A stretch of DNA of 64,000 nt from assembly GCA_017676145.1 (NCBI GenBank), contig GCA_017676145.1_3628.1, one strand, 5' to 3'. Under the pieces are notes generated by a model, which was given only the letters and a program-made list of their open reading frames with translations, was not told where the DNA came from and searched no databases. Positions 47,921 to 55,520 of the stretch are shown in pieces (positions within the stretch are counted from its first letter, which is position 1; each line of letters begins with the position of its first letter). This DNA is from a phage. A program made the position numbers and the translations under genes.

Positions 47921-48923
47921 TCTTAAGCAGACAGGATTATCGAATCCTTATATTCAAAGGTGGTCGCAACACCACCTTCCGCACCTTTACGTGCTGCTGC
48001 ATGTTACCATGCAGAGTAGACTATATCACCACCCATCTCAGGGTGCTTCGCTTTTCGAGCGCCATAAGCTTGCGCCCTACTCCCTCTCGGGATAGTCGTT
48101 GAACTACATTACCAATCGTAATTGTTTGAAATATAGGTGTAAGTCTTACGATCTTTTATTCCTTTAACAACACTAAAACTTACTCCCCACTTCTTAGCTA
48201 TTTTATTTACACACAAAACCCTGTCGCTAAGATCCTCGCAGATACCTATTATCTTGTGCTCACTTATCCTATTAGAGGTTGGCACTTTTCTAAAGTTAAA
48301 CTCTTTAGAAATATCTGGGTATACTGAGCCATTCTTTATACCACTTACAAGTGGTTGATTGACACCAAACATTTCACAAATGTCTTTTACCCTTGCACCT
48401 TGCTCTAACAGCCTACATATTTCAAGAGCAGTGGCATCATCTAGGGACCTGTATCTATTGATATAGTCCTTTTTAAGTCCCATTTCATGAGCGTGATGTG
48501 TGTTTTCCTCAGGCGTTGTCCACTCAAGGTTCCATGCGGCGTTATTCAACTTATTACCATCCAGGTGGTTTACTTGAGTTTTCACGCTGGGATTATCATT
48601 ATCAACAAAAGTCATAGCAATCACTCTGTGGACTAGCACTTGGAACTTTTTACCGCCCTCGCACAAAGTTACCATAGCATAGCCAGTCTTTTTCTGCACA
48701 TTAGGATGGAGGAATTTATTAGAATACAGACTGTAAATTCTTCCATCGTATGTAGCACAATAATGATTGTAACCTAAAAAGCCTAAATTTTTCATTTCAA
48801 ACATCTCCCTACTACAGGTTCGGAAGGGTAATTATAGCTGCTGATTGTCCGTTTAGCAATCGGATTTTCCAGCAATTAACGAAGTTATTCGACGTGCATT
48901 TCTGCACGAAGCCACTATCATTT
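47921..48923 (-). mobile_element. group I intron 2 in terminase large subunit gene, carrying an HNH homing endonuclease ORF; ends approximate
   Basis: Minus-strand core elements P AATTGCTGGAAAA (48866-48878), Q AATCAGCAGC (48837-48846), R GTTCAACGACTA (48083-48094), S GATATAGTC (48019-48027) in canonical order; in-frame stop right after the exon; ORF between Q and R. Confidence 0.75.
48109..48804 (-). CDS. intron-encoded HNH homing endonuclease (231 aa)
   Basis: NHLDGNKLNNAAWNLEWTTPEEN HNH motif; located inside intron 2 between Q and R elements. Confidence 0.8.
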   Translation of the reverse strand: MFEMKNLGFLGYNHYCATYDGRIYSLYSNKFLHPNVQKKTGYAMVTLCEGGKKFQVLVHRVIAMTFVDNDNPSVKTQVNHLDGNKLNNAAWNLEWTTPEENTHHAHEMGLKKDYINRYRSLDDATALEICRLLEQGARVKDICEMFGVNQPLVSGIKNGSVYPDISKEFNFRKVPTSNRISEHKIIGICEDLSDRVLCVNKIAKKWGVSFSVVKGIKDRKTYTYISNNYDW

Positions 48924-49241
48924 AATGGTTGCGCCTATAAACGAGAATGACAACGGTCTTGGCTTAATCTCCACACCTAGTCCGTTAACCGTGGTGTATT
49001 TCTCTATTAACTCCTCTTTAGAGTCTCCCCAGATAAATTCACCGTCGCGCCGGATAAAATATCTTTTCTTACCACATTTCTCCGGATCTGGATACCCTTC
49101 ATCGTCCAACCACCACCTAACCAGTTTGGCAAGCATGTGTTCTGAGTCGGGGTTACAGCTGATAACCATTCTTGATGGATACTTTGACTGAGATCGCAGA
49201 CGAGACATTAGATAGTCTATCTGCTCCCATTCGAATTGCGT
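48924..49241 (-). CDS. terminase large subunit, exon 2; boundaries approximate
   Basis: In-frame segment ...(T)QFEWEQIDYLMSRLRSQ...VISCNPDSEHMLAKL...; bounded upstream by intron 1 and downstream by a stop at the start of intron 2. Confidence 0.6.
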
Positions 49242-49560
49242 CGTTTATGTTCAGGCAAGGTCGCTAGTCTTGCCCCGCCATTTTCAGGCAGCTGCATGTC
49301 TCCATGCAGACCAGACTATATCTTATAAGCTATAACAACAGCTTACCCTCCCGTTTCGAATCGCTTGATTCTACGTCTTTCGACTAGTCGTTGAACGTTC
49401 ATCCTCTCGGATGCTTCGCTGCGGATTATCTAAATCAACACTCTGTTACCATACCTTCGATCTCTCTTCGAAGCCTCTATTATGTTACCATAACAGGTTG
49501 GTGGTGTTAATAATAAAGATTTCCCCGCAATTAGGGAGGTTTTACGAGAGCTACAAATTA
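49242..49560 (-). mobile_element. group I intron 1 in terminase large subunit gene (no ORF)
   Basis: Minus-strand P AATTGCGGGGAA (49521-49532), Q AATCCGCAGC (49418-49427), R GTTCAACGACTA (49385-49396), S GATATAGTC (49316-49324); exon ends GGT followed by TAA, as in T4 td-type introns. Confidence 0.75.
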
Positions 49561-49986
49561 ACCCTCATCGAAGCAAACCATGGTGTACTCAAGCCCTTGA
49601 TGGTTAAGCTTATCTTGGACATACTCCATGTGGCAGTATTTTACAACGGCCCCTTTTTTGCTCCTGTCCCACTTGCCAGTGCTCGGATCAAACCGTGGAA
49701 AAATAAACTTATGATCCTTCTCTCTGAACTTTGGTTTAATGTTTTCAGGCAGATCACTGTAAATAGCTACTGCTTTAGGCCATAGACCTCCTTCACCCTC
49801 CAGCTGCGGGGTTGTTCTTCGGAACATAACCACAGAGCTGTGTGGGTCATCAATAATTTTAAGTGGCATTAGCTGCAAGAGGAACGACTTGCCAGAACCG
49901 GCTGCACCTCCGATCACCAAAATATCTGCATCGTTCTCAAGGATCATCTTCTGCTTTTCAGAACACGGTCCGTAAATCTTAGACAT
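49561..49986 (-). CDS. terminase large subunit, exon 1 (ATPase domain)
   Basis: Walker A GGAAGSGKS and Walker B MVCFDEG; start ATG overlaps the o-spanin stop (TAATG). Confidence 0.75.
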
Positions 49987-51329: not shown

Positions 51330-51335
51330 AAAAAG

Positions 51336-51440
51336 GTGCTAGGTGATGGAATCGAACCACCTATGTATTCAACGACTACCTCGTCTATTTTCAGGATTAA
51401 AAATCCTCGCCCTTGCCAAAGGGCTTACCTAGCGCAATAT
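51336..51440 (-). ncRNA. tRNA-like element, non-canonical (pseudo-tRNA or small stable RNA)
   Basis: Has 7-bp acceptor-like stem GCTAGGT/ACCTAGC, D-like arm GCCC/GGGC and T-arm GGTGG-TTCGATT-CCATC, but no 7-nt anticodon loop and ~30 nt extra between anticodon-like and T arms; CCA not fully encoded. Confidence 0.35.
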
Positions 51441-52125: not shown

Positions 52126-52464
52126 TTAACTATTGCCAACAGGCTGTATCTCTGTGGTAAATGGCATAAAAGGTGCTGGTTTTTCAGCCTCTTCTACTAC
52201 CACCTCTTCCTCTTCACCAAACATCTCATCATATTCTTCCTGCATTCGGTCTGCCTTATCAAGGACATACTCTGCAATGCTTTGACGAATATTTTGCTTG
52301 GTTTTCGGATCCAACATCAGCTCTCTTAAAACTTTGTGAGCTTCTGGAACCATCGCTATAAAAGATTCCTTCATATCAAGAATGTTCTTCTCTAGCTGAA
52401 TGGCGTTGGACTCCTCTTTCAGAGGTCTGCCTCTACGGCGACGCTTTTTAGTTGTATCCGCCAT
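52126..52464 (-). CDS. basic/acidic bipartite protein with AT-hook-like KKRRRRGRP motif (112 aa)
   Basis: ATG at 52464 with GGAGG RBS preferred over the listed 52584 start; highly acidic C-terminus; directly upstream of the tRNA array. Confidence 0.5.
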   Translation of the reverse strand: MADTTKKRRRRGRPLKEESNAIQLEKNILDMKESFIAMVPEAHKVLRELMLDPKTKQNIRQSIAEYVLDKADRMQEEYDEMFGEEEEVVVEEAEKPAPFMPFTTEIQPVGNS

Positions 52465-52492
52465 GTTTCCTCCATTATCACGTGATAGGTGG

Positions 52493-52521
52493 ATTTTATC
52501 ACGGCAAATACTGATTGTCAA
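52493..52521 (-). promoter_or_regulatory. sigma70-like promoter (TTGACA-17-TAAAAT) with downstream 12-bp perfect palindrome
   Basis: On minus strand TTGACAatcagtatttgccgtgaTAAAAT; palindrome TATCACGTGATA (52476-52487) lies between the -10 and the RBS. Confidence 0.55.
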
Positions 52522-52809
52522 GTTCGCCGCAGGGTGGTATTCCCTGCGACTTGCCCAGCGTCCTGGACCAGAAAGACCCAACAAGTGGGTTACCAGAGAC
52601 CCATTACCGCGCTTTGGCTCGACCTTATTACAGGTTGGCTGGGGTCACATCGTCATGTGCTGGCTGCCCCTACCATTTTAAGTGTGGTGCACTATCAAGC
52701 CCTCTAAGGGGAACTCAGCATTCTCCGAACCCTGTTTCAAAGCATCCGGAGATAAAGCCATCAAACTCATCTTTAAATTGGATATTCATCATGATACACG
52801 AAAACAACC

Positions 52810-53052
52810 TCATTGTAAAGCACAAATAAATAAAACATACTTAATTTGTTTGTTATCGGGCTCAGGGTAGAAGTAGAAGATCTTGCTATCACCAATCTGA
52901 ACACCACCATCCCAACAACATAAACCATAACCCGTATTCATACAAGCTAAGTCGTTGGCAAAATCTATTGCATCATCTAGTGCACGAAATTCACCTTCAT
53001 CTTCTAAATAATCCTCATTCATGGAACGGAAAACGAGCTTAACCTTAAACAT
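52810..53052 (-). CDS. hypothetical protein (80 aa)
   Basis: Co-oriented small ORF. Confidence 0.4.
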   Translation of the reverse strand: MFKVKLVFRSMNEDYLEDEGEFRALDDAIDFANDLACMNTGYGLCCWDGGVQIGDSKIFYFYPEPDNKQIKYVLFICALQ

Positions 53053-53128
53053 AGCATTACCTGTAGACCTCGTAAGTTAAAATTGTATCACATCATATTG
53101 CAGATCTTATCAGGTAACATTATTTTTG

Positions 53129-53317
53129 TCAACAGATTCCGGCCTTATCCCTCCTGTCTGCGTATTCTTTAATCGCAACCTCACCTGCATTGGTAACCAG
53201 ATCTTCAAAGTAATTCTCAAGCTCCTCGTCAATGTCCGGTGACCAGCTCTTTTTCCTGTCAGTGTGAATTGCAGACTTGTTGAACTTATTACAGTTCTTT
53301 GCTACCGGATTGTTCAT
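53129..53317 (-). CDS. hypothetical protein (62 aa)
   Basis: Co-oriented small ORF, acidic. Confidence 0.35.
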   Translation of the reverse strand: MNNPVAKNCNKFNKSAIHTDRKKSWSPDIDEELENYFEDLVTNAGEVAIKEYADRRDKAGIC

Positions 53318-53327
53318 TAAGCTCTCC

Positions 53328-53906
53328 TCAACGTTCGTAGTAAATCTTATTCAACATTACCTCATCGTTTGCAGAAAGGATATCAAGATATGCATCACCA
53401 AATCTGCCTGCAACAACCTCTGCATGATACATCACTTCGTCAACATCGTCAAGAGTGATAACCGGATGACCATATCTTTCTGAATATTGCCTCAGGGTGC
53501 GATGTAACGAGTCGTCATCATATGCAGACTTTTTAATATCACAAACACGACGAATGGCCTTGATGTCGAAAAAACCTGTGCGATACCACCCAAGAAAAAA
53601 GTTCCGTGTGGTGTCAACATCTACATCAATACCATCAAGAACTTTATCTACAAGATAGCTGTCATCCTTTGGACCAGCGTCCTTAGTGCGAATGTAGTTG
53701 CCATCTTTTCCAGGCGATAGCTCCTTCTCATCACCAACCTGCATGCCATCATTTGGCGGTGTTAGCCACTTATCCGGATGCTTACGATCACGAGCGTTAG
53801 AATGATTACGCTGGAAACCTGGCTTCCACTTGAAAGTTTTCTCCATCTGTTCTTCATTCTGATAACGTTTTGCAATCTTTTCGCGGTCATCTTTGCGTGA
53901 ACTCAT
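53328..53906 (-). CDS. hypothetical protein (192 aa)
   Basis: ORF with strong RBS (gaagaggagg) immediately upstream of the ATG; charged, no recognised motif. Confidence 0.5.
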   Translation of the reverse strand: MSSRKDDREKIAKRYQNEEQMEKTFKWKPGFQRNHSNARDRKHPDKWLTPPNDGMQVGDEKELSPGKDGNYIRTKDAGPKDDSYLVDKVLDGIDVDVDTTRNFFLGWYRTGFFDIKAIRRVCDIKKSAYDDDSLHRTLRQYSERYGHPVITLDDVDEVMYHAEVVAGRFGDAYLDILSANDEVMLNKIYYER

Positions 53907-54410
53907 AACTGCCTCCTCTTCAAGTTATAGAAAAACTCACTGTATCGCTTTGTAACGAGCTTTTCTATCAAACTGGTGCGATTGCCTTACTTGGTATAGT
54001 TTACGCAGCTGTGTGGCGATTTAGGGGCCTTCCTGTCCGTTTCCACACATAAACTTTAACTAAACTCGCGCGGGAGGCTCTCAACCGACTCCTTACGGCG
54101 CTGGCAAGCTTTCGTCGGTGGTCCACATTAGTGCTCGGCCTTTGGCCTGCGCTATCGCTTCGCTCCCACACATGTTAACAGTCCTGCATGTATGCACTCC
54201 TGTCATTGTGTGCACTATGGAGGCCCGGCATCTCGCCCCTCGTAGGCGAGTGCCAATGAAGGGCCGACACTACCAATAGTAAGTAATAAATTTAAAACAT
54301 GGTACTTAGGATCTAGTATATTCTACATAAGTTAAGTATATGTACTTTAGTACCATAAGTACTAGATCTTTTATTTTTTATTATTTAGTTATTTTAGTTA
54401 TATTCTTTAT

Positions 54411-54496
54411 GTGTCCGTATTGCGGACAGTTAGTGTCCGTATTACGGGCAGATGTGTCCGCGTGACGGACAGTAGTGTCCGTATCACGGACAGTTA
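54411..54496. repeat. array of four tandem ~21-22 bp repeats, each an imperfect palindrome TGTCCG-N5-CGGACA (iteron/operator-like)
   Basis: GTGTCCGTATTGCGGACAGTTA / GTGTCCGTATTACGGGCAGAT / GTGTCCGCGTGACGGACAGTA / GTGTCCGTATCACGGACAGTTA; roughly two-helical-turn spacing; adjacent to a ~120-bp AT-rich tract (54290-54410). Confidence 0.7.
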
Positions 54497-54567
54497 CTAC
54501 CCTCTGCTCTTGGATGGACATAAAACATACGAATCCTTATAGTGCAGATATTTAAGTTTTCACTGGT

Positions 54568-54918
54568 CTAACCAGTTGTTGACATTCGAATAACCTCTTC
54601 TGGTGGCAAAACTTTGGAAAATGTGCATCTTTTACCTCTCCCTTGTGTGGATATTTCAACCACTCCTGCACATTCTAAAGTTTTAACGCACGCTGCTGCT
54701 TTTGTTTTCTTTATCCCAACATCTGCTGCAATTTTCCTTGTGCTGGGTGTGAAGCGTGAATTTCCTCCAAGCTTATACCAGTTGTGCAGGTAGCAGTATA
54801 CGATCTTGTCATACAAGTCAAGAACAACAACCTCCCCGGTTGTGTCATTCAAAACTTTTGACATAGACAGTATTTCAAGGGGGACTTTAAGATATAGCAG
54901 CTTATCCCCATCTTTCAT
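54568..54918 (-). CDS. small putative DNA-binding protein (HTH-like, 116 aa; assigned from sequence appearance only)
   Basis: Segment STRKIAADVGIKKTKAAACVKTLECAGVV reads as a helix-turn-helix recognition region; gene ends ~70 bp from the repeat array. Confidence 0.45.
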   Translation of the reverse strand: MKDGDKLLYLKVPLEILSMSKVLNDTTGEVVVLDLYDKIVYCYLHNWYKLGGNSRFTPSTRKIAADVGIKKTKAAACVKTLECAGVVEISTQGRGKRCTFSKVLPPEEVIRMSTTG

Positions 54919-54965
54919 ATCTCCTGATTCTCCTTGTGTGGCAATTTTCTTTAAAATAGCAGGGA

Positions 54966-55520
54966 TTACTCCCCGCTGTCAATAGCAAGACTCATTGCAA
55001 TACGGTATGCCTCTTCTAATGGTAAGAGTCTCCCCCACACATCCCAACCGACATCAAACTGCCTGCCAAACAACTGTTGCGTGGTTCCGTGAGCATGACC
55101 GAACAGTTGGACTGATCCGTGATGCTTTCTGTTCCACGTTGCAAACTGGTAATGACTCATACAGATCAAATTCTTGTTGTGGCGAAACTCGTAATAATCT
55201 ACAACCTCATGATAGAACTCTTTCATAATTCTGACAGTCGTCCTTGTGTCATGGTTGCCACGAACAAGAATAATATGTCCGTTCAACATATTTAGAATAT
55301 CTGGAAGTAAGTTGTTGATATTCTTATCATTAGTGCACGCAATATCCCCCAAGTGGAACACAGTGTCTGCAGGTGACACAACAGAGTTCCACTCGGTGAT
55401 GATTCCAGCATTCATACTGTCAAGATTGTGATCATACTGAGATCTGTGTTTTTGACACGAGTCAAACTCCATGACCCGCTGGTGGAGAAAGTGTGTGTCA
55501 CTTGTTACAAAGTATTTCAT
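54966..55520 (-). CDS. calcineurin-like metallophosphoesterase (phosphatase)
   Basis: Internal start MKYFVTSDTHF preferred over the listed 55625; motifs D-x-H (SDTHF), GD (LGDIA), GNHD, GHAH typical of the metallophosphoesterase fold. Confidence 0.65.
   Translation of the reverse strand: MKYFVTSDTHFLHQRVMEFDSCQKHRSQYDHNLDSMNAGIITEWNSVVSPADTVFHLGDIACTNDKNINNLLPDILNMLNGHIILVRGNHDTRTTVRIMKEFYHEVVDYYEFRHNKNLICMSHYQFATWNRKHHGSVQLFGHAHGTTQQLFGRQFDVGWDVWGRLLPLEEAYRIAMSLAIDSGE

What the first reader, a model, noticed from the sequence alone, without database searches (positions are those of the whole stretch)
54290..54520. Iteron-like array of four palindromic 21-22 bp repeats abutting an AT-rich tract: candidate replication origin or operator cluster
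Four tandem repeats, each containing TGTCCG-N5-CGGACA, are spaced about two helical turns apart (54411-54496) and followed by ~120 bp of very AT-rich DNA full of inverted repeats (e.g. GATCTAGTA / TACTAGATC). This whole 660-bp stretch is non-coding and lies just beyond the 3' end of a small putative HTH gene; extra TGTCCG/GGACA half-sites occur nearby (about 54032 and 54514). Iterons beside a DNA-unwinding-like element is the classic origin architecture; alternatively it is a cooperative operator array.
Basis: seen in the sequence. Interest (0 to 1): 0.7.

Follow-up and report, generated by a model that had tools for sequence, protein, structure and literature searches.

The report
Candidate replication origin of rV5-like phages
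Next to a small DNA-binding protein gene, this rV5-like E. coli phage carries four evenly spaced palindromic binding sites beside the most easily melted DNA in its genome; this looks like a phage-lambda-type replication origin, which has never been located in this phage group, although a purely transcriptional switch is not excluded.

Summary
The window is a Vequintavirus (rV5/FV3-like) genome. Four copies of GTGTCCG-N5-CGGACAG lie at 54411-54496, spaced 22/21/21 bp. The array occurs only once in the 137-kb FV3 genome.

It abuts a 130-bp tract of about 20% GC (54280-54410). This tract is the least stable duplex in the window and in all of FV3. Array and AT tract are more conserved across the genus than the flanking genes. 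The spacer and the GC-rich part drift at about the neutral rate.

The adjacent 116-aa gene (54568-54918, minus strand) encodes a DUF6945/HTH_36 winged helix. The best matches spanning almost the whole model are 4RO3 and the N-terminal domains of plasmid RepA_N initiators.

Distant homologues in three sister genera and in Pseudomonas phage phiPMW also sit next to 2-3 phased repeats with different sequences. This co-variation of protein and site supports cognate binding. In Klebsiella phage KpS8 the repeat-adjacent T-rich tract is again the genome-wide stability minimum.

The geometry copies lambda ori. A Treponema O-like initiator gene carries the same palindrome internally.

Best reading: iterons plus an unwinding element (confidence 0.5). 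Main rival: an operator array (0.33). No experimental characterisation of this element turned up in the literature searches.

The parts
54568..54918 (-). Gene for a 116-aa DUF6945/HTH_36 winged-helix protein (rV5 gp075/ORF79 homologue). It is the presumed binder of the array.
   Evidence: ORF. Pfam DUF6945 27.1 bits (cut-off 28) and HTH_36 24.5 bits (cut-off 25). PHROG 12838, named 'replication initiation protein'. PDB 4ro3 E 1.4e-6. AF2 model pLDDT 80.5 with helix-strand-strand + winged helix + C-terminal helix. Fold hits 4ro3, RepA_N and DnaD N-terminal domains, plus MarR/TrmB-type regulators. Variable columns are biased to third codon positions, 8/12/37, so it is a real gene.
54953..54982 (-). 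Sigma-70-type promoter just upstream of the winged-helix gene (TTGACA-18-TATTTT with a TG). It implies early expression by host RNA polymerase.
   Evidence: Consensus scan 10/12. The same site is annotated as P76 in the rV5 RefSeq record.
54497..54567 (.). 71-bp spacer between the stop codon and the array. It is poorly conserved.
   Evidence: 31% variable columns, similar to third codon positions. It holds a +-strand TGGACA-17-TATAGT promoter-like site at 54515-54543 whose -35 is not conserved.
54411..54496 (.). Array of four 21-22-bp repeats, each with a TGTCCG-N5-CGGACA dyad. The spacing of about two helical turns puts all sites on one face of the helix. Proposed iterons or operators.
   Evidence: 9.3% variable columns against 13.6-16.2% in flanking CDS. 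Arms 2/48 variable, centres 4/20, linkers 2/18. Aligns in position with the two repeats of sister genera.
54280..54410 (.). 130-bp AT-rich tract (about 20% GC). Proposed DNA-unwinding element. The array-proximal half (54365-54410) is a T-rich run starting with GATCTTTTATTTT. The distal half carries GATC/GTAC short inverted repeats.
   Evidence: Least stable duplex of the window and of the whole FV3 genome. 7.7% variable columns, the most conserved segment of the locus. The proximal half aligns with the T-rich tracts of Henuna-, Mydo- and Seunavirus. The KpS8 counterpart is also its genome-wide minimum. There is no sigma-70 site scoring 9/12 or better at 16-18-bp spacing. Only weak relaxed candidates were found.
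54000..54279 (.). GC-rich (53-57%) non-coding stretch. Probably not part of the functional unit.
   Evidence: 23% variable columns and an 18-bp deletion in rV5. The ORF78-like frame has no codon bias. No Rfam match. RNA fold z -2.85 on the minus strand.
53328..53906 (-). Downstream 192-aa gene of unknown function (PHROG 12226), specific to the genus.
   Evidence: No similarity to initiator C-terminal domains.

Best explanation
The 215-bp unit at 54280-54496 is a cis-acting nucleoprotein site. It consists of four phased dyad-symmetric binding sites for dimers of the adjacent early 116-aa DUF6945 winged-helix protein, directly abutting the most easily melted DNA in the genome.

The most likely function is a lambda-type or iteron-type replication origin. 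The proposed steps are:
1. The protein is made early from a host-type promoter.
2. It fills the four sites, which all lie on one face of the helix, and bends or wraps the DNA.
3. With negative supercoiling and read-through transcription, this opens the neighbouring AT tract.
4. The phage's own gp4-like primase-helicase and polymerase start synthesis on the opened DNA.

Shown here: the anatomy, its uniqueness in the genome, purifying selection on array plus AT tract, the extreme duplex instability, and the co-variation of protein and repeats between genera.

Inferred: binding, melting and initiation.
For: **Array.** It is unique in the genome and phased at 21-22 bp.

**AT tract.** It is the genome-wide duplex-stability minimum in FV3. 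Its counterpart in the Mydovirus KpS8 is also that genome's minimum.

**Conservation.** Array and AT tract are the most conserved segments of the locus, 9.3% and 7.7% variable columns. This compares with 25-32% at third codon positions and 31% in the neighbouring spacer. Dyad arms vary less than dyad centres, though only at p = 0.057.

**Co-variation across lineages.** DUF6945 homologues (25-30% identity) in Henuna-, Mydo- and Seunavirus and in phiPMW each sit beside 2-3 repeats at about 23-bp spacing with different half-sites. The T-rich tract and repeats align in position with the window.

**Decoupling from the gene's own promoter.** In rV5-likes the module lies 3' of the gene and is inverted relative to it. 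It has four copies rather than two. It therefore cannot act as a classical operator at the gene's own promoter, yet it is conserved.

**Protein.** The AF2 model (pLDDT 80.5) has the helix-strand-strand + winged helix + C-terminal helix layout. Nearly full-length (114-column) alignments are with 4ro3 and RepA_N initiator N-terminal domains (4pql, 5kbj, 4pta); DnaD N-terminal domains align over 91-99 residues (8ojj, 2vn2). PHROG hits 8102, 428 and 270 are named 'replication initiation protein'.

**Lambda ori.** It has the same geometry: four 18-bp sites with 6-N5-6 dyads, spaced 20/24/23 bp. The AT-rich stretch lies on the side away from the initiator's N-terminal coding part.

**Treponema element.** Its ParA/ParB-linked O-like HTH_36 initiator gene carries three TGTCCG-N5-CGGACA sites at codons 120, 135 and 142, followed by a 27%-GC stretch.

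**Literature.** The origin of rV5 was sought by skew analysis and not found (PMC3606486).
Against: - There is no experimental or read-depth evidence for initiation here.
- The protein has no domain that could recruit a helicase. It shows no sequence similarity to lambda O and reaches no Pfam initiator family.
- In phiPMW and the sister genera the repeats lie between an early promoter and the gene, the textbook position for autoregulation.
- The same palindrome pair also occurs upstream of GntR/ABC-transporter operons in bacteria, where it is most simply an operator.
- GC skew follows transcription direction and is therefore uninformative.
- A second gene-free 2.2-kb region with its own repeats exists at FV3 104-106 kb.
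- The oriC-like 13-mer is a single match at chance level.
Confidence: 0.5

Rival explanations
1. Purely transcriptional operator array. The winged-helix protein is a Cro-like early repressor or roadblock. By filling the four sites it could do one of three things:
- block read-through of early leftward transcription (from P081/P76) into the downstream tRNA and late region;
- repress a weak promoter whose -35 is the last CGGACA arm (CGGACA-15-TAAAAT, minus strand);
- repress a +-strand promoter in the T-rich tract (TATATT at 54399) that would otherwise run antisense into its own operon.
For: In phiPMW the first of three GGACA-AAA-TGTCC dyads overlaps the -10 of a TTGACT-17-CAAAAT promoter in front of the homologous gene.

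In Henuna-, Mydo- and Seunavirus the two repeats sit just upstream of the ribosome-binding site of the homologue, downstream of strong divergent sigma-70 promoters.

The fold core resembles MarR/TrmB/LexA regulators.

The same palindrome pair lies upstream of a GntR(YtrA-like)-ABC transporter operon in a Ruminococcus MAG, and upstream of ABC transporter genes on a Trueperaceae contig.

The module lies at the boundary between early genes and the tRNA/late part of the leftward unit.

Relaxed promoter candidates flank the array.
Against: - No promoter scoring 9/12 or better at normal spacing overlaps or adjoins the array on the transcribed strand. The +-strand 10/12 site is antisense and its -35 is not conserved.
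- In rV5-likes the array is 3' of the gene and away from its promoter P76, which carries no such site.
- An operator does not explain why about 100-130 bp of 10-20% GC DNA next to the repeats is conserved, or why it is the genome-wide stability minimum in two genera.
- Iteron initiators commonly autoregulate as well (established for P1, pSC101 and F replicons; from memory). The position in the relatives therefore does not exclude an origin.
Confidence: 0.33
2. Packaging (pac) recognition site. The small protein would act as a terminase small subunit or pac-binding factor that marks where headful packaging starts.
For: Vequintaviruses are reported to package by a headful mechanism (PhageTerm, PMC13211470). 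No small terminase subunit is annotated next to the large subunit. Repeated protein-binding sites are typical of pac sites (established knowledge).
Against: - The gene sits among early genes behind a sigma-70 promoter. It lies about 4.6 kb from the terminase large-subunit gene, with tRNAs and spanin genes in between.
- The predicted fold has no helical oligomerisation core of the kind seen in small terminase subunits, and no such subunit appears among the top fold matches.
- In the sister genera the module sits at the main divergent early promoter region.
Confidence: 0.05
3. RNA-level element. The four dyads form tandem 6-bp hairpins in the 3' untranslated part of the early mRNA and act as stabilisers, processing sites or a terminator-like barrier.
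For: The array is transcribed as the 3' region of the winged-helix mRNA. Each unit can form a 6-bp stem with a 5-nt loop. Loops vary more than stems.
Against: - No U-tract follows the hairpins, and no terminator-like site is predicted there.
- The two arm substitutions seen are one-sided. In most phages one of them gives a C·A mismatch on the transcribed strand of repeat 2.
- Exact 21-22-bp phasing and co-variation with a DNA-binding protein across genera point to recognition at the DNA level.
Confidence: 0.04

Closest known systems
Phage lambda ori with the O protein (the O-some)
   Same: - Four about 18-19-bp sites, each a 6-N5-6 dyad, about two helical turns apart (lambda 20/24/23 bp; here 22/21/21).
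- An AT-rich stretch immediately on the side pointing away from the initiator's N-terminal coding part.
- An initiator DNA-binding domain of about 110 residues made early (O's winged-helix fold is from memory, not checked here).

The comparison was checked on the annotated lambda record.
   Different: - Lambda ori lies inside the O gene. Here the array starts 71 bp after the stop codon.
- O has a C-terminal domain that recruits P-DnaB. The 116-aa protein has none.
- There is no sequence similarity (E 0.3) and no Phage_rep_O Pfam hit.
- The AT tract is about three times longer than lambda's.
- The phage carries its own gp4-like primase-helicase.
Iteron replicons of plasmids and plasmid-prophages (P1 oriR, pSC101, F; staphylococcal RepA_N plasmids such as pSK41/pTZ2162)
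   Same: - In the sister genera the order is AT-rich tract with GATC sites, then repeats, then the winged-helix gene. This is the basic-replicon order of these plasmids (plasmid side from memory).
- The predicted fold aligns over its full length with RepA_N N-terminal domains 4pql, 5kbj and 4pta.
   Different: - No Rep_3 or RepA_N Pfam membership.
- The host is a 137-kb virulent myovirus.
- There are only 2-4 repeats.
- No DnaA boxes were established.
O-like HTH_36 initiator of a Treponema mobile element
   Same: - The same palindrome, TGTCCG-N5-CGGACA, with 22-bp spacing, followed by an AT-rich stretch.
- An HTH_36 winged helix that hits the same PHROG initiator families (270, 428, 8102). Pairwise E is 1e-3.
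   Different: - The protein is 352 aa with a C-terminal zinc-ribbon region.
- The sites lie inside the gene.
- The gene is linked to ParA/ParB.
- The function of this element is itself only inferred.
Phage operator clusters (lambda OR/Cro, phi29 p4 sites)
   Same: Three to four phased dyad sites bound by a small early protein, placed at a boundary between transcription units (from memory).
   Different: No convincing promoter overlaps the sites in rV5-likes. The conserved, extreme AT tract has no counterpart in those switches.
Pfam DUF6945 / PDB 4RO3 (N-terminal domain of a Vibrio cholerae protein of unknown function)
   Different: The family has no known function, so membership does not say what the protein does.

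Membership tests
Lambda-type phage origin (iterons plus AT-rich element plus O-like initiator) | Three or more phased, dyad-symmetric repeats of about 18-20 bp | tested here: met
   Four repeats with 22/21/21 spacing and 6-N5-6 dyads. Compared directly with the annotated lambda iterons.
Lambda-type phage origin (iterons plus AT-rich element plus O-like initiator) | An easily melted AT-rich region directly flanking the repeats | tested here: met
   The 130-bp tract is the least stable duplex in the window and in FV3. The same holds in KpS8. This is a thermodynamic calculation only; unwinding was not shown.
Lambda-type phage origin (iterons plus AT-rich element plus O-like initiator) | The initiator is homologous to lambda O (Pfam Phage_rep_O) with a C-terminal helicase-loader-binding domain | tested here: not met
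   No Phage_rep_O hit. BLASTP against O gives E 0.3. The protein is 116 aa, a single domain.
Lambda-type phage origin (iterons plus AT-rich element plus O-like initiator) | Replication actually initiates at the site | not testable with these tools
   Needs marker-frequency sequencing, 2-D gels or an origin-plasmid assay.
RepA_N / DnaD-N-terminal-domain-like initiator DNA-binding domains | Winged helix extended by an N-terminal helix-strand-strand and a C-terminal helix | tested here: met
   The AF2 model (pLDDT 80.5) has H14-18, E21-23, E30-32, the winged helix, then H106-112. RepA_N domains 4pql and 5kbj align over 114 columns; 4pta (112 columns), 8ojj and 2vn2 align over 90-99 residues. The layout of DnaD/RepA_N domains is recalled from the literature.
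RepA_N / DnaD-N-terminal-domain-like initiator DNA-binding domains | Significant sequence membership (Pfam RepA_N or DnaD_N) | tested here: not met
   No such Pfam hit at E ≤ 1. PDB sequence hits to RepA have only E about 1.2.
Pfam DUF6945 / HTH_36 winged-helix family | Score at or above the curated gathering threshold | tested here: inconclusive
   The window protein scores 27.1 against 28 (DUF6945) and 24.5 against 25 (HTH_36). The homologues from phiPMW, Henunavirus and Mydovirus pass DUF6945 with 42.6, 32.2 and 28.7. All seven aligned members match it.
Autoregulatory operator cluster | Binding sites overlap or directly adjoin the regulated promoter | tested here: inconclusive
   In the window there are only sub-threshold or odd-spacing candidates, and the array is not at the gene's own promoter P76. 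In phiPMW a dyad overlaps a 9/12 promoter.
Autoregulatory operator cluster | Sites co-vary with the adjacent regulator gene | tested here: met
   Different half-sites accompany 25-30%-identical proteins in five lineages. This feature is shared with iteron origins.
pac site with terminase small subunit | The protein has a small-terminase fold and the gene or site adjoins the large-subunit gene | tested here: not met
   Fold searches gave no small terminase among the top matches. The gene lies about 4.6 kb from the large-subunit gene, among early genes.
Known RNA families (Rfam) | Match at the gathering score | tested here: not met
   Nothing found in 52300-54600 except a chance rli43 hit of 21 bits against a threshold of 100.

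The most novel reading that the evidence does not exclude
A stand-alone 105-136-aa DUF6945 winged helix, consisting of an initiator-type DNA-binding domain with no helicase-recruiting domain, is the origin-melting protein of a whole group of large virulent phages (Vequintavirinae and Plaisancevirus). These phages replicate with a T7-like primase-helicase. The protein co-evolves with its repeats. In sister genera the same site also gates the first early operon, which includes NAD+-salvage-type genes. Origin firing and the shut-off of early transcription would then be one event.
Probability: 0.2. Interest if true: 0.65.

Novelty: new variant of a known kind. Interest (0 to 1): 0.5.

Why it matters
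rV5-like phages are widely used for E. coli O157 biocontrol and in phage-therapy collections. Their replication origin has never been located; the 2013 genome paper tried skew analysis and found only transcription switches.

This work gives a precise candidate of about 215 bp together with its cognate protein, so the question can be tested directly. Suitable tests are EMSA, marker-frequency sequencing and an origin-plasmid assay. The same work would assign a first function to Pfam DUF6945 and to PDB entry 4RO3.

If the site is instead a switch, it defines the early-to-late boundary control of this phage group. Either way the module (winged-helix gene, co-varying phased repeats and the genome's least stable DNA) is conserved across Vequintavirus and the three sister genera examined (one phage each), and phiPMW keeps the winged-helix gene and phased repeats. 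It is useful for engineering these phages.

Tried and rejected
- **IMG/VR scans.** Scans for the protein and for an invariant 33-mer found nothing. That collection seems to lack these phages.
- **Protein searches.** Searches of 5.8 billion and 1.8 billion proteins found only relatives at 86% identity or more, plus weak HTH hits. Distant phage homologues appeared only after a tblastn with one of those weak hits.
- **First AF2 model.** A 5-sequence alignment gave an unusable model (pLDDT 47).
- **Sister-genus candidate kps8_103/ORF93.** This 118-aa gene follows the phosphoesterase in sister genera. It is not a homologue.
- **gp77 as a split-off initiator C-domain.** No similarity to lambda O, the Treponema initiator or any PDB chain.
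- **GC-rich 54000-54280 as a structured RNA or gene.** No Rfam hit, near-neutral drift and no codon bias.
- **Cruciform in the AT tract.** Not better than shuffled sequence.
- **oriC-like 13-mer.** One perfect match, at chance level within the window.
- **GC skew as origin evidence.** Rejected because it tracks gene orientation.
- **Double-palindrome scan of bacterial genomes.** Eleven loci in heterogeneous contexts: terminase, MerR, transposase, GntR-ABC, PrimPol-helicase and an O-like initiator. The motif alone is therefore not diagnostic of function.
- **Literature.** No transcriptome, origin mapping or DUF6945 paper was found.

Full report
**Identity of the window.** The region is 90-99% identical to 119 GenBank records of Vequintavirus, the rV5/FV3-like E. 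coli myoviruses. All genes around the finding are on the minus strand. In the direction of transcription the order is:
- polynucleotide kinase-like ATPase;
- phosphoesterase;
- a 116-aa HTH gene (54918 to 54568);
- a 661-bp intergenic stretch;
- a 192-aa gene of unknown function (53906 to 53328);
- further downstream, a tRNA cluster, spanins, terminase and the structural genes.

**Check of the observation.** Four repeats lie at 54411-54496 with start-to-start spacing of 22, 21 and 21 bp. Tandem Repeats Finder ranks this array as the strongest tandem repeat in the window. The dyad TGTCCG-N5-CGGACA occurs, with up to 2 mismatches, only at these four places in the window. In the whole FV3 genome it occurs only here, plus one isolated 1-mismatch site.

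The AT-rich tract is real. A nearest-neighbour stability scan shows that 54280-54410 is the least stable duplex of the window and of all 137 kb of FV3. This holds at window sizes of 60, 100 and 130 bp and lies about 6 sd from the genome mean. The tract does not form a significant hairpin or cruciform.

**What is under selection.** I aligned eleven vequintaviruses spanning the genus: seven GenBank phages including this window, plus four near-identical metagenome contigs. The share of variable columns by segment was:

| Segment | Variable columns |
|---|---|
| AT tract | 7.7% |
| Array | 9.3% |
| Three flanking genes | 13.6-16.2% |
| Third codon positions of those genes | 25-32% |
| 71-bp spacer after the stop codon | 31% |
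| GC-rich 54000-54280 | 23% |

The constrained non-coding unit is therefore about 54280-54496. Within the array the dyad arms vary least (2/48), the dyad centres most (4/20) and the linkers are intermediate (2/18). This is what half-site recognition by a dimer predicts, although p is only 0.057.

The GC-rich part has no Rfam match. The small ORF annotated there in rV5 shows no codon-position bias. I treat it as filler or a decaying remnant.

**The protein.** It scores just under the Pfam thresholds for DUF6945 and HTH_36. It belongs to PHROG 12838, named 'replication initiation protein', and weakly hits three further PHROGs of that name. It matches PDB 4RO3, an uncharacterised Vibrio cholerae N-terminal domain.

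Outside the genus, two very large protein searches found only weak HTH-level hits. With those hits added to the alignment, AlphaFold gave a confident model (pLDDT 80.5). The model has a short helix and a beta-hairpin, then a winged helix, then a C-terminal helix.

- Foldseek ranks 4RO3 first. Next come the N-terminal domains of staphylococcal RepA_N plasmid initiators (4pql, 5kbj, 4pt7, 4pta), most of them aligned over 112-114 columns.

The fold therefore leans towards initiator-type domains but does not decide the question.

**Relatives elsewhere.** A tblastn with one weak hit uncovered DUF6945 homologues, 24-30% identical to the window protein, in four other phages:
- Erwinia phage pEp_SNUABM_01 (Henunavirus);
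- Klebsiella phage KpS8 (Mydovirus);
- Cronobacter phage EspYZU15 (Seunavirus);
- Pseudomonas phage phiPMW.

Each gene is flanked by its own phased repeats. The three Vequintavirinae genera have two copies of about 20 bp (TGCTCAA-N-TTGAGCA type) 23 bp apart. phiPMW has three GGACA-AAA-TGTCC dyads spaced 33 and 23 bp.

The window's + strand aligns with the sister-genus leaders. The T-rich tract and the frame 'TTTAyGTG[repeat 1]...TTAGT[repeat 2]' are homologous in position, while the half-sites differ. This co-variation of protein and site is the strongest evidence that the neighbouring protein binds the array. In KpS8 the T-rich tract next to the repeats is again the least stable duplex of the whole 143.8-kb genome.

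**Arrangement.** In the relatives the order is: early divergent promoters, T-rich tract, repeats, ribosome-binding site, winged-helix gene. In rV5-likes the T-rich tract and array lie beyond the 3' end of the gene and are inverted relative to it. The repeat number has doubled.

The gene's own promoter (TTGACA-18-TATTTT, P76 of the rV5 record) carries no such site. The module therefore cannot work as a classical autoregulatory operator here, yet it is the best-conserved DNA in the locus. That argues for a cis function independent of the gene's promoter.

**Comparison with lambda.** I made this comparison on the annotated lambda record rather than from memory. It shows four 18-bp iterons (TCCCTC-N5-GAGGGA) spaced 20/24/23 bp and starting at O codon 117. 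They are followed by an AT-rich stretch of about 40 bp. The geometry and polarity are the same as here, but the proteins share no detectable sequence similarity.

**The palindrome in bacterial genomes.** I scanned one genome per bacterial species for the exact double palindrome. It gave 11 loci where about 0.01 would be expected. Several carry 3-5 copies at the same 21-22-bp period. Their contexts are mixed. Three are telling.
- In a Treponema contig, three copies lie inside a 352-aa HTH_36 gene at codons 120, 135 and 142, followed by a 27%-GC stretch. The gene hits 'replication initiation O-like' and 'DnaD-like' PHROGs and sits downstream of ParA/ParB. This is a lambda-O-style module with the same site.
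- In a Planctomycetota contig, two copies and an AT-rich run lie beside a PrimPol-helicase gene.
- In a Ruminococcus contig the copies precede a GntR-ABC transporter operon, where they look like ordinary operators.

**Weighing the readings.** Six points favour an origin:
- a unique phased array;
- the extreme and conserved duplex instability beside it in two genera;
- the initiator-like fold;
- lambda-like geometry;
- the Treponema analogue;
- decoupling from the gene's promoter in rV5-likes.

Four points favour a purely transcriptional operator:
- the position of the repeats in the four relatives, which in phiPMW overlaps a promoter -10;
- the absence of any helicase-recruiting domain;
- the regulator-like winged-helix core;
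- the position at the early/late boundary.

Iteron initiators usually also repress their own genes, so the two readings are not exclusive. I put the origin at 0.5, a pure operator at 0.33, a pac site at 0.05 and RNA hairpins at 0.04. The pac reading rests on headful packaging being reported for the genus (PMC13211470), but the protein's fold, timing and position speak against it. GC skew cannot help because it follows gene orientation.

**Novelty.** The rV5 genome paper looked for the origin by skew analysis and found only transcription switches. It does not mention these repeats (PMC3606486). A few GenBank records carry an uninterpreted 'repeat_region' here. RefSeq names the protein 'replication initiation protein', the same name as its PHROG family carries. 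No paper on DUF6945, and no transcriptome or origin map for the genus, was found.

The kind of system, phased sites plus an unwinding element plus a cognate winged helix, is classical. The variant is a stand-alone minimal binding domain in large virulent phages that carry their own primase-helicase.

Noticed in passing
window 49292-49570 (-), with ORFs 48109-48804, 48918-49208, 49558-49986: A group I intron (Rfam RF00028, 85 bits) interrupts the terminase large-subunit gene of this phage. The FV3 gene is uninterrupted.
   Followed up: partly
window 51335-51433 (-): A 99-nt tRNA-like gene in the tRNA cluster. ARAGORN calls it with a 4-base anticodon ('tRNA-???'). It is annotated as a 97-nt tRNA-Lys in phage EduardKellenberger. 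It may contain an intron or be otherwise unusual.
   Followed up: no
window about 52500-52750: A second GC-rich (52-56%) stretch without a convincing gene, lying between two small minus-strand genes near the tRNA cluster.
   Followed up: no
window 54000-54279: GC-rich non-coding DNA with moderately significant RNA folding on the minus strand (z -2.85). It drifts near neutrally and has an 18-bp deletion in rV5. The rV5 ORF78 annotated here shows no codon-position bias.
   Followed up: yes
L005:4300-6600 (FV3 104.3-106.6 kb; outside the window): A 2.2-kb gene-free region where the two large transcription units converge. It carries its own repeats (ACTGTTTACGCATATA x4, three of them at 30-bp spacing) and AT-rich patches. 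It is an alternative candidate for an origin or terminus.
   Followed up: partly
L034 (CP057073.1, 137,565 bp, circular): A complete vequintavirus genome is deposited as 'plasmid pRHB39-C03_2' of an E. coli cattle isolate. This suggests a carrier state, or phage contamination of the culture. None was found in RefSeq complete E. coli genomes.
   Followed up: partly
GenBank MG0656xx records (hits to window 53900-54600): Eighteen records named 'Campylobacter phage' are 95-100% identical to E. coli vequintaviruses at this locus. The host labels are probably wrong.
   Followed up: no
L017:1-2488, L018:1-2453, L036:1420-3198: In Mydo-, Seuna- and Henunavirus the winged-helix homologue is the first gene of an operon with PRPP-synthetase-like and NAMPT-like genes (NAD+ salvage or reconstitution type). 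Vequintavirus lacks these genes at this position.
   Followed up: partly
L022-L032 (bacterial genome contigs): Tandem TGTCCG-N5-CGGACA arrays with the same 21-22-bp period occur in unrelated bacteria (Myxococcales, Treponema, Planctomycetota, Hymenobacter and a Ruminococcus MAG) in varied mobile-element and operon contexts. The half-site and period may be a recurrent solution for GntR/HTH_36-type winged helices.
   Followed up: partly
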